Shown here: piece by piece, positions 53,416 through 54,091 of the stretch
Numbering within the stretch: the first letter of the stretch is position 1
How the letters are laid out: every line of letters starts with the position of its first letter
Assembly (NCBI GenBank): GCA_043228905.1
Contig: JBHGNT010000020.1
Span: 2,418,001-2,482,000 of the forward strand
Direction: 5' to 3'
DNA: 64,000 nucleotides
Source: Azolla caroliniana
Taxonomy: Eukaryota; Plantae; Polypodiophyta
The notes under the pieces: model-generated
The model's database searches: none
The model's input: only the letters and a program-made list of their open reading frames with translations
Told to the model about the DNA's origin: nothing
Translations under genes and position numbers: made by a program

Positions 53416-54073
53416 AGCCGGATAAAGAGACGTAAATGTAAAAAAAAAAGGAAATACTCACTACTGCGCAGGGCGTGATTCGAACTCTGCACCTCCACGT
53501 TGACAAACCCCAACCTTACCATTACATTAACTTATCTTAAGTGTTTTAAATATAGATTTAATACGTATAAGACCTTTATTTATGCATACCTTTATTAAAA
53601 GGTAAATCGTGTATTTTTTAATATATGAAAAAGAAAAACACGAGACACTAAAAATAACTCATGCACATCTAGCGTGCATGAGCCCTATACTTAGGAAATA
53701 AAAAAGCATCACATGCACATTTAGTGGACATGAACACTTTTTGTAAAAAAAAAAAGCATGAAGCCATGCTTAGCTCTTCTTTCCTTATATAAGGAGGAGA
53801 GAAATATGTAAAGGGTTGTTGATTATTTGGATTAAGTATTAATCAATACAAAATTTATTCGTGGGATTCACGATTTATACATCTACTTCTCTCTTAACAC
53901 CCTAAGTACCAATTAATATAGTATACACGTGTGATTCACGAGTTTCTTATCTTTCTCTTTGCTATTTACTCATAATTAATCTCTATCTCACGAACTTCTT
54001 TCTCCTAGTCCAAGACCTCTGTGGTTCCCACCCGACTCACGCAACGATCCGGAGCCGAAAGGCACGACACAGT

Positions 54074-54091
54074 TGGTGAACCCGACGTGAA
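54074..54091 (+). promoter_or_regulatory. Primer-binding site complementary to the 3' 18 nt of plant tRNA-Trp(CCA)
   Basis: TGGTGAACCCGACGTGAA is the reverse complement of TTCACGTCGGGTTCACCA (tRNA-Trp 3' end as recalled). Identical in the copies at 6958-6975 and 13018-13035. Confidence 0.85.

What the first reader, a model, noticed from the sequence alone, without database searches (positions are those of the whole stretch)
54022..54091. U5 end of family-P LTR is a condensed antisense mirror of the tRNA-Trp primer, ahead of the true PBS
Seen: the most conserved LTR block reads TGGT tccc ACCCGAC t CACGCAAC GATC(C/T)GG(A/C)G, followed by a GCC-GAAA-GGC hairpin and the terminal ACGACA (also at about 1337-1384, 6980-7027, 9963-10010, 13040-13087, 14723-14771, 30578-30625 and 60527-60573). 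The reverse complement of plant tRNA-Trp as I recall it is TGGT ga ACCCGAC gtgaatcgaa CACGCAAC cttct GATCTGGAG, the same four blocks in the same order. CACGCAAC would pair with the 5' T-stem/variable region and GATCYGGAG with the anticodon arm. Established: the HIV-1 primer activation signal and the Ty1/Ty3 extended or bipartite PBS pair with primer regions outside the 3' 18 nt. Inference: an extended primer-capture module, possibly born from over-copying of the primer.
Basis: partly seen in the sequence, partly recalled or inferred. Interest (0 to 1): 0.72.

Follow-up and report, generated by a model that had tools for sequence, protein, structure and literature searches.

The report
Primer-activation-like signal in moss retrotransposon LTR

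Summary
The block is real. It ends the U5 of a complete Ty3/gypsy element with Phygy hallmarks (NCGN target duplication, perfect 18-nt tRNA-Trp PBS). Rice tRNA-Trp, used as a stand-in for the host's, holds the predicted partners, and apparently no other rice tRNA does.

I compared 27 related U5 types, and only one of the four 'mirror' blocks survives. CACGCA, complementary to tRNA nt 48-53 (T-arm 5' strand), ranks first of 4096 hexamers there (7/27 exact, 19/27 within one mismatch). ACCCGAC is kept in 2/27; it overlaps a U5-leader stem that covaries with the leader (0/20000 swaps as good). TGGT is a hairpin arm. The anticodon block scores 7-8 of 9 in only 4/27.

Best reading: a retrovirus-like initiation domain (U5-leader stem, PAS-like T-arm element, terminal hairpin, PBS). 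The word likely masks the PBS end in free RNA and captures the displaced T-arm strand after priming. Function is untested, and an origin by over-copying is unsupported. My paper searches found no plant precedent. The scan noted a related LTR/primer switch in another genome (e1-7508199).

The parts
53210..54069 (+). 5' LTR (TGTCGT...ACGACA), 860 nt
   Evidence: 833 matches and 3 mismatches against the 3' LTR
53206..53209 (+). 4-bp target-site duplication ACGC (NCGN type), repeated at 60574-60577
   Evidence: Phygy hallmark in PMC6317226
53786..53792 (+). TATA-like box; would place the U5 block inside the transcript (start site inferred)
54001..54006 (+). 5' strand of the predicted outer helix, pairing with 54103-54108 (up to the A of the gag ATG)
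   Evidence: fold; both-side changes in all 5 consensus pairs of this helix
54014..54026 (+). predicted RACC-loop-GGTY hairpin; contains the 'TGGT' block, whose first T is in the variable loop
   Evidence: (6 both-side changes at the closing pair, 32 sequences)
54028..54034 (+). U5 arm CCACCCG of the predicted U5-leader stem; overlaps the 'ACCCGAC' block
   Evidence: (swap test, 0 of 20000)
54038..54045 (+). CACGCAAC: PAS-like element complementary to tRNA-Trp nt 53-46; conserved core CACGCA
54046..54054 (+). GATCCGGAG: 8 of 9 complementary to anticodon arm nt 40-32; restricted to family P and its sister group
54054..54063 (+). predicted terminal U5 hairpin GCC-GAAA-GGC; relatives mostly have a hairpin here in other sequence
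   Evidence: summed energy better than all 200 shuffles
54064..54069 (+). LTR end ACGACA (inverted repeat of TGTCGT; presumed integrase attachment end)
54074..54091 (+). 18-nt primer-binding site for tRNA-Trp(CCA), after spacer CAGT
54094..54100 (+). leader arm CGGGTGG of the predicted U5-leader stem
54108..56147 (+). gag-protease ORF
56024..59749 (+). pol (RT, RNase H, integrase; no chromodomain hit), overlapping gag in another frame and interrupted by in-frame stops
59737..60573 (+). 3' LTR, with its copy of the block at 60527-60573
6958..7027 (-). second family copy with U5 block and intact Trp PBS
13018..13087 (-). third family copy with U5 block (decayed core) and intact Trp PBS
1337..1384 (+). 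U5 block of an LTR with no PBS behind it (likewise 9963-10010 minus, 14723-14771, 30578-30625)

Best explanation
The LTR end holds a conserved word, CACGCA(AC), that is complementary to the T-arm 5' strand of plant tRNA-Trp and likely acts as a primer-activation-like signal inside a predicted retrovirus-style initiation fold of a Phygy-type moss retrotransposon. Predicted mechanism: in free RNA, CCACCCG pairs with the leader behind the PBS, and CACG extends that stem into the PBS 3' end, partly masking it. tRNA-Trp anneals over 18 nt and opens its own T stem. The released U5 word then captures the displaced strand (nt 48-53, or 46-53 in this family). That gives a three-way junction of U5-leader stem, PBS helix and T-arm helix, joined by the T loop, which would hold the primer open for reverse transcriptase. 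Shown: sequence, complementarity to the rice tRNA, conservation and stem covariation. Inferred: the pairing in vivo, the switch and any effect on initiation.
For: The PBS is the exact complement of an Arabidopsis TrpCCA 3' fragment, and the partner strand is in rice tRNA-Trp and apparently only there. In 27 U5 clusters from 49 loci found by their PBS, not by U5, CACGCA ranks first of 4096 hexamers in the zone 36-12 nt before the LTR end: 7/27 exact and 19/27 within one mismatch. Nine upstream control zones give 0-1 exact and 0-5 within one mismatch, of 24-26. Summed longest Watson-Crick run to tRNA nt 44-55 is 143, against 125.5 +/- 4.1 in shuffles (maximum 140 in 300). After the first ACG the next letter is C in 14 of 18 (tRNA model) and T in 2 (PBS model); ACGTC occurs in 0 of 49 loci. 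ACGC[AG] lies on both sides of the best-supported split of the Gag tree. U5 arm versus own leader sums to -196.9 kcal/mol against -148.1 +/- 8.8 for swapped leaders (0 of 20000, 18 clusters). The motif usually starts 3-10 nt after the stem arm, with 0-2 nt between PBS and leader arm. In this family the word is predicted 0.66 paired to the PBS in free RNA and 0.67 unpaired when the PBS is blocked; its duplex is -11.2 kcal/mol with the exact complement and -4.8 with the PBS. No 7- or 8-nt partner exists in the element's sense strand. Precedent: HIV-1 PAS, HIV-2 and Rous sarcoma virus U5 with tRNA-Trp (passages of PMC1865047, PMC3185550, PMC13191261).
Against: No functional data. The host tRNA was not obtained; rice and Arabidopsis stand in. 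Four of the six core letters (CACG) also pair with the PBS, so only the flanking letters point to the tRNA alone. 14 of 27 clusters lack exact ACGC[AG] and 8 lack CACGCA within one mismatch; at 75% clustering it is in 6 of 14 groups. The full 8-mer is in only 2 of 27. In L041, L134 and L135 the word is CCGCA and predicted paired in a local helix (unpaired 0.17-0.33). With G-U pairs allowed the excess is weaker (207 against 183.9 +/- 6.9, shuffle maximum 209). Clusters are relatives, so this is one inherited motif, not 27 independent origins, and most loci share a contig-name series. No element using another primer was found, so compensatory change with the primer is untested. The HIV-1 PAS pairing is itself disputed.
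Confidence: 0.62

Rival explanations
1. All U5 conservation is intramolecular or protein-directed. CACG is kept to pair with and mask the PBS 3' end (or as a Gag, RT, integrase or transcription-factor site), and the tRNA match follows automatically because the T stem is self-complementary.
For: CAC(G)/TACG is predicted to pair with the PBS in free RNA in 10 of 19 loci folded (0.40-0.71). The TGGT and ACCCG blocks are already explained by covarying stems. A single-copy 8-nt run has p about 0.02 in shuffles.
Against: PBS pairing would be extended by T-C after ACG, but C follows in 14 of 18 and ACGTC is absent from 49 loci. In 7 of the 19 loci predicted PBS pairing is 0.06 or less, and four of these (L047, L089, L129, L140) still carry the word.
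Confidence: 0.23
2. One reading: the whole U5 end is a condensed antisense copy of the primer, born by over-copying, and all four blocks pair with tRNA-Trp (acceptor strand as a landing pad, T arm, anticodon arm).
For: The four blocks are collinear with the tRNA antisense in this family. Positions 54023-54049 vary by at most about 1.5% of laid depth, apart from a 1-nt insertion. The anticodon block is 8/9 in this copy (p 0.007) and 7/9 in L087, L148 and sister L141. CCCGAC recurs in 5 of 27 clusters, including distant L143. A54035 and C54036 are kept although their leader neighbours vary. The family-P and L040 arms also pair well with the primer 3' end (-12.1 and -13.5 kcal/mol).
Against: ACCCGAC is in 2/27 clusters and GATCYGG in 1/27. 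The anticodon score sum is at chance (37/300). The U5 arm prefers its own leader to the primer end overall (-196.9 against -124.8). The variant that gains the anticodon-matching T at 54050 mostly loses A at 54053 (75% and 75% in X17, 81% and 83% in X18), so 9/9 is seen in 0 of 8 window copies. Over-copied primer would be expected behind the PBS; only 2 of 52 loci read TCG there.
Confidence: 0.12
3. A tRNA-derived RNA polymerase III promoter or captured tRNA in the LTR, as in Helenus.
For: Helenus LTRs contain tRNA-like sequence (passages of PMC10886601).
Against: The T-loop (B box) letters are exactly what is missing. ARAGORN finds no tRNA in the window and Rfam gives no tRNA match even at E 10. 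A TATA-like box is present.
Confidence: 0.03

Closest known systems
HIV-1 primer activation signal (PAS) and the HIV-2 U5/T-stem contact
   Same: Short U5 word upstream of an 18-nt PBS, complementary to the primer's T arm, inside or beside a U5-leader stem and maskable by intramolecular pairing (passages of PMC1865047 and PMC3185550).
   Different: Plant LTR retrotransposon with a tRNA-Trp primer. The word is predicted to be masked by the PBS end rather than by the leader strand. Only 6 nt are widely kept. No functional test.
Rous/avian sarcoma-leukosis virus U5-TpsiC interaction with tRNA-Trp
   Same: Same primer isoacceptor and a proposed U5/T-arm pairing. The order U5-leader arm, T-arm element, terminal U5 hairpin, PBS, leader arm matches the avian model as I recall it; the primary papers were not held.
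   Different: Retrovirus of birds, with an animal tRNA-Trp. No sequence relationship was tested here.
Ty1 extended PBS (boxes 0, 1, 2.1) and Ty3 bipartite PBS
   Same: LTR retrotransposons with primer contacts beyond the contiguous PBS (passages of PMC3592414).
   Different: Those have a short (10-nt in Ty1) or split PBS with a tRNA-Meti primer; here the PBS is a full 18 nt and the extra element is upstream, in U5.
Phygy lineage of Ty3/gypsy (Neumann et al. 2019, PMC6317226)
   Same: Non-chromovirus, 4-bp NCGN target duplication, tRNA-Trp PBS (81% of 186 elements), compact internal region.
   Different: The passages and supplement table I read describe the PBS only, not U5 elements. This element is 7.36 kb, just under the listed range of 7.66-9.97 kb.
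Helenus / Cassandra small-RNA-derived LTRs
   Same: tRNA-related sequence inside an LTR.
   Different: Those carry small-RNA-derived promoter sequence in non-autonomous elements, and the Helenus tRNA-like part is unrelated to priming; here the match is to the element's own primer and lacks the B box.

Membership tests
Phygy (Ty3/gypsy non-chromovirus) | gag-prot-RT-RH-INT order without chromodomain | tested here: met
   (RVT_1, RT_RNaseH, rve; no Chromo hit in the four ORFs of this element)
Phygy (Ty3/gypsy non-chromovirus) | 4-bp NCGN target-site duplication | tested here: met
   ACGC on both sides; definition
Phygy (Ty3/gypsy non-chromovirus) | tRNA-Trp PBS | tested here: met
Phygy (Ty3/gypsy non-chromovirus) | RT/RH/INT phylogeny with the reference Phygy set | not testable with these tools
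   reference protein file too large to read
Retroviral PAS / U5-TpsiC element | lies in U5 upstream of an 18-nt PBS | tested here: met
Retroviral PAS / U5-TpsiC element | complementary to the primer's T-arm 5' strand | tested here: met
   rice tRNA-Trp as stand-in; host tRNA not obtained
Retroviral PAS / U5-TpsiC element | conserved among relatives using the same primer | tested here: met
   rank 1 of 4096 hexamers; 19 of 27 clusters within one mismatch, 8 not
Retroviral PAS / U5-TpsiC element | sits in a U5-leader stem context and is maskable | tested here: inconclusive
   the stem covaries; masking and release are only predicted and differ among subfamilies
Retroviral PAS / U5-TpsiC element | co-adapts when the primer tRNA changes | tested here: inconclusive
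   no element with another primer among the loci or the window; the scan selected for the Trp PBS
Retroviral PAS / U5-TpsiC element | stimulates initiation from the annealed tRNA | not testable with these tools
   needs an in vitro or in vivo assay
Ty1/Ty3 extended or bipartite PBS | short or split PBS completed by distant or downstream boxes | tested here: not met
   contiguous 18-nt PBS
Helenus-type tRNA-derived LTR promoter | tRNA-like sequence with intact A and B boxes | tested here: not met
   T-loop letters absent from the block

The most novel reading that the evidence does not exclude
This family and its sister group extended the lineage-wide T-arm element into a near-complete primer-unzipping track. 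ACCCGAC serves as a first landing pad for the acceptor strand, CACGCAAC takes the T arm and variable loop, and GATCYGGMG takes the anticodon arm, so that U5 plus PBS read most of the tRNA in order: a retrotransposon RNA that chaperones its own primer.
Probability: 0.13. Interest if true: 0.75.

Novelty: new member of a known kind. Interest (0 to 1): 0.52.

Why it matters
PAS-type primer contacts are described for retroviruses and remain disputed even in HIV-1. A bryophyte Ty3/gypsy lineage that keeps the same layout (U5-leader stem, T-arm word, terminal hairpin, 18-nt PBS) would show that the design is either old or convergent. It would also give a natural comparative test, because a minority of Phygy elements are listed with tRNA-Thr primers (6%). 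It marks out the cis elements of reverse-transcription initiation for a plant lineage where I found only the PBS described.

Tried and rejected
Host genome: not held.

tRNA-Trp gene as a locus: none obtained. Viral-contig patterns gave 0, 31 chance loci without any tRNA, and 0. GTDB gave 0 and two bacterial hits that I did not examine further. The metagenome loci held only one tRNA-Arg. Co-folding with the whole tRNA was therefore not done.

Relatives in viral contigs: none. Rfam: two sub-threshold chance hits. No RNA holder was listed for the stretch.

A dimerization palindrome was suggested by TCCGGA and GGCGCC in the two haplotypes. Rejected as a lineage trait: 9 of 27 clusters have a palindrome of 6 nt or more, against 8.5 expected.

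RNAalifold did not recover the U5-leader stem or the terminal hairpin, because MAFFT mis-registered the middle columns; I used swap and shuffle tests instead. Its three PBS-internal pairs are invariant by selection and say nothing.

The one non-Trp-looking PBS, in the L032 flank, is a decayed Trp PBS by eye. A supplement of PMC7544208 held none of the tRNA motifs. Four primary papers were not held.

Full report
Setting. The window is a nest of LTR retrotransposons. The finding lies at the end of the 5' LTR of a complete element, 53210-60573. Its LTRs are 860 and 837 nt with only 3 mismatches in 836 paired columns, the ends read TGTCGT...ACGACA, and the target duplication is ACGC on both sides. 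It has gag-protease at 54108-56147 and an overlapping pol with RT, RNase H and integrase domains, interrupted by stops, with no chromodomain hit. A 4-bp NCGN duplication and a tRNA-Trp PBS are the hallmarks of the moss Phygy lineage (PMC6317226, passages and supplement table). The most distant full-length Gag relative is from the liverwort Riccia. The host is therefore inferred to be a bryophyte; no genome is held.

Observation. The block and the other seven copies exist; three of the eight are followed by an intact 18-nt PBS. That PBS is the exact complement of an Arabidopsis TrpCCA 3' fragment (PMC5389709 supplement row). By my count on those rows, CACGCAAC pairs with nt 53-46, GATCTGGAG with nt 40-32 and ACCCGAC with nt 70-64. 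Four diagnostic words occur 14 times each in the rice alignment; the six places of each that I saw are Trp rows. The tRNA match is thus real and apparently specific, with rice standing in for the host. In this one copy the 8-nt run has p about 0.02 against dinucleotide shuffles, the anticodon block at 8 of 9 has p 0.007, and the 7-nt PBS repeat has p 0.057.

Comparison set. 52 are Phygy-like, by a downstream Gag match or an LTR end just before TGG; the other 68 were set aside as chance, unplaced or (L099) lacking upstream sequence. 49 had enough upstream sequence (L095, L105 and L144 dropped) and form 27 clusters at 85% identity, 14 at 75%. Selection was on the PBS, so U5 is unbiased. The clusters are relatives, most share a contig-name series, and L126 is nearly identical to the window.

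Block 1, TGGT. GGTY pairs with RACC five bases upstream, with 6 both-side changes at the closing pair among 32 aligned sequences. The first T sits in the loop and is often C. It is a hairpin arm, not a CCA-binding site.

Block 2, ACCCGAC. It is exact in 2 of 27 clusters. The position is held by an arm that pairs with the first bases behind the PBS and changes with them: CCACCCG/CGGGTGG here, CCGCCCG/CGGGCGG in L118, CCGTTC/GAACGG in L135, CCGCTTC/GAAGCGG in L140, GCGACAC/GTGTCGC in L050. Over the 18 clusters where both arms could be cut out (9 left out), own-leader pairing beat all 20000 leader swaps. A second, outer helix reaching the gag start also covaries.

Block 3, CACGCAAC. CACGCA is the most shared hexamer of 4096 in the zone 36-12 nt before the LTR end: 7 of 27 exact, 19 within one mismatch, against at most 1 and 5 in nine upstream zones. 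The summed complementarity to tRNA nt 44-55 exceeds all 300 shuffles for Watson-Crick pairs, and less clearly with wobble. The obvious confound is that CACG also pairs with the PBS, since the T stem is self-complementary. The next letters decide: the tRNA predicts C then A or G, the PBS predicts T then C. Observed after the first ACG: CA 9, CG 4, CC 1, TA 1, TG 1, AT 1, AA 1, of 18 clusters with an ACG. The motif occurs on both sides of the one well-supported deep split of a short Gag tree of 28 rows, which has long branches. It is absent or reduced in 8 clusters.

Block 4, GATCYGGMG. It scores 7-8 of 9 in four clusters (family P relatives and the sister L141) and 4-6 in the other 23; the sum is at chance, 37 of 300. 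Two haplotypes, GATCCGGAG and GATCTGGCG, each miss one pair (laid contig depth is not copy number, and hid 15 rows). A clade-specific anticodon contact is possible, and HIV-1 has precedents, but it is not part of the lineage-wide design. The last 24 nt of U5 fold into a hairpin in most clusters, with summed energy better than all 200 shuffles.

Mechanism (inferred). Free RNA is predicted to fold the U5-leader stem, with CAC(G) extending it into the PBS 3' end (the whole 131-nt fold is only z -1.8). Primer annealing displaces that extension and opens the T stem. The freed U5 word can then re-form a T stem in trans, with G49-C in place of the tRNA's own G49-U65, plus up to three more pairs in this family (-11.2 kcal/mol against -4.8 with the PBS). 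The spacing, usually 3-10 nt from stem arm to word and 0-2 nt from PBS to leader arm with the 5-nt T-loop remnant as third linker, fits a three-way junction. I put 0.62 on this PAS-like role, 0.23 on purely intramolecular or protein-binding conservation, 0.12 on the full four-block mirror and 0.03 on a captured tRNA promoter.

Origin. Over-copying past m1A58 yields extra primer sequence behind the PBS (review PMC13191261, passages). Only 2 of 52 loci read TCG there. The U5 block lacks the T-loop letters, and two of its four blocks have structural explanations. Selection for pairing is the simpler account; duplication of a PBS region cannot be excluded.

Known versus new. It works like the HIV-1 PAS, the HIV-2 U5/T-stem contact and the Rous sarcoma virus U5-TpsiC contact with tRNA-Trp (passages of PMC1865047, PMC3185550, PMC13191261); the functional membership tests could not be run. 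It is not a Ty1/Ty3-type short or split PBS (passages of PMC3592414) nor a Helenus-type promoter. Five full-text searches (listings seen, with passages read from PMC6317226, PMC4032725 and PMC10886601) showed no report of such an element in a plant retrotransposon. The library lacks most subscription papers, four older primary papers were not held, and the Phygy per-element supplement was too large to read. The scan has an earlier, unchecked note on a related LTR/primer switch in another genome (e1-7508199), and no sequence look-alikes.

Verdict. A real and previously unremarked PAS-like element within a covarying U5-PBS-leader fold; a smaller claim than the four-block mirror. New member of a known kind, interest 0.52.

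Noticed in passing
window 54074-54091; PMC5846777 table 3: The plant 'miRNA' miR894, first reported in moss, matches the tRNA-Trp 3' end and is complementary to this PBS. It is likely a tRNA 3' fragment that could target Phygy RNA.
   Followed up: partly
L089 and L144, just behind the PBS: The PBS continues with TCG, three more bases complementary to tRNA nt 58-56, like the lentiviral primer over-extension sequence; 2 of 52 loci.
   Followed up: no
L089, L111, L144 (and L087) downstream of the PBS: A shared ORF with no Gag match follows a Phygy-type PBS; possibly non-autonomous derivatives carrying an extra ORF.
   Followed up: no
L141 and L111: U5 is lengthened by a repeat, and a second partial PBS with its own GGGTGG leader arm lies about 25 nt behind the true PBS; the CACGCA word stays next to the stem arm in L141.
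   Followed up: partly
window 54009-54107: The U5 block and PBS are stop-free and in frame with gag; gene callers extended Gag through them in P0002 and P0004. Probably chance.
   Followed up: no
window 54001-54006 with 54103-54108: A covarying outer helix reaches the gag start codon, reminiscent of the HIV-1 U5:AUG pairing (recalled), and could couple priming to translation.
   Followed up: partly
window 53290-53415: A roughly 23-nt tandem repeat in U3 differs by about one unit between the two LTRs.
   Followed up: no
window 24184-27996 and 60939-64000: Chromodomain-bearing Ty3/gypsy elements of another family, and copia fragments near 14942, 45817 and 50851.
   Followed up: no
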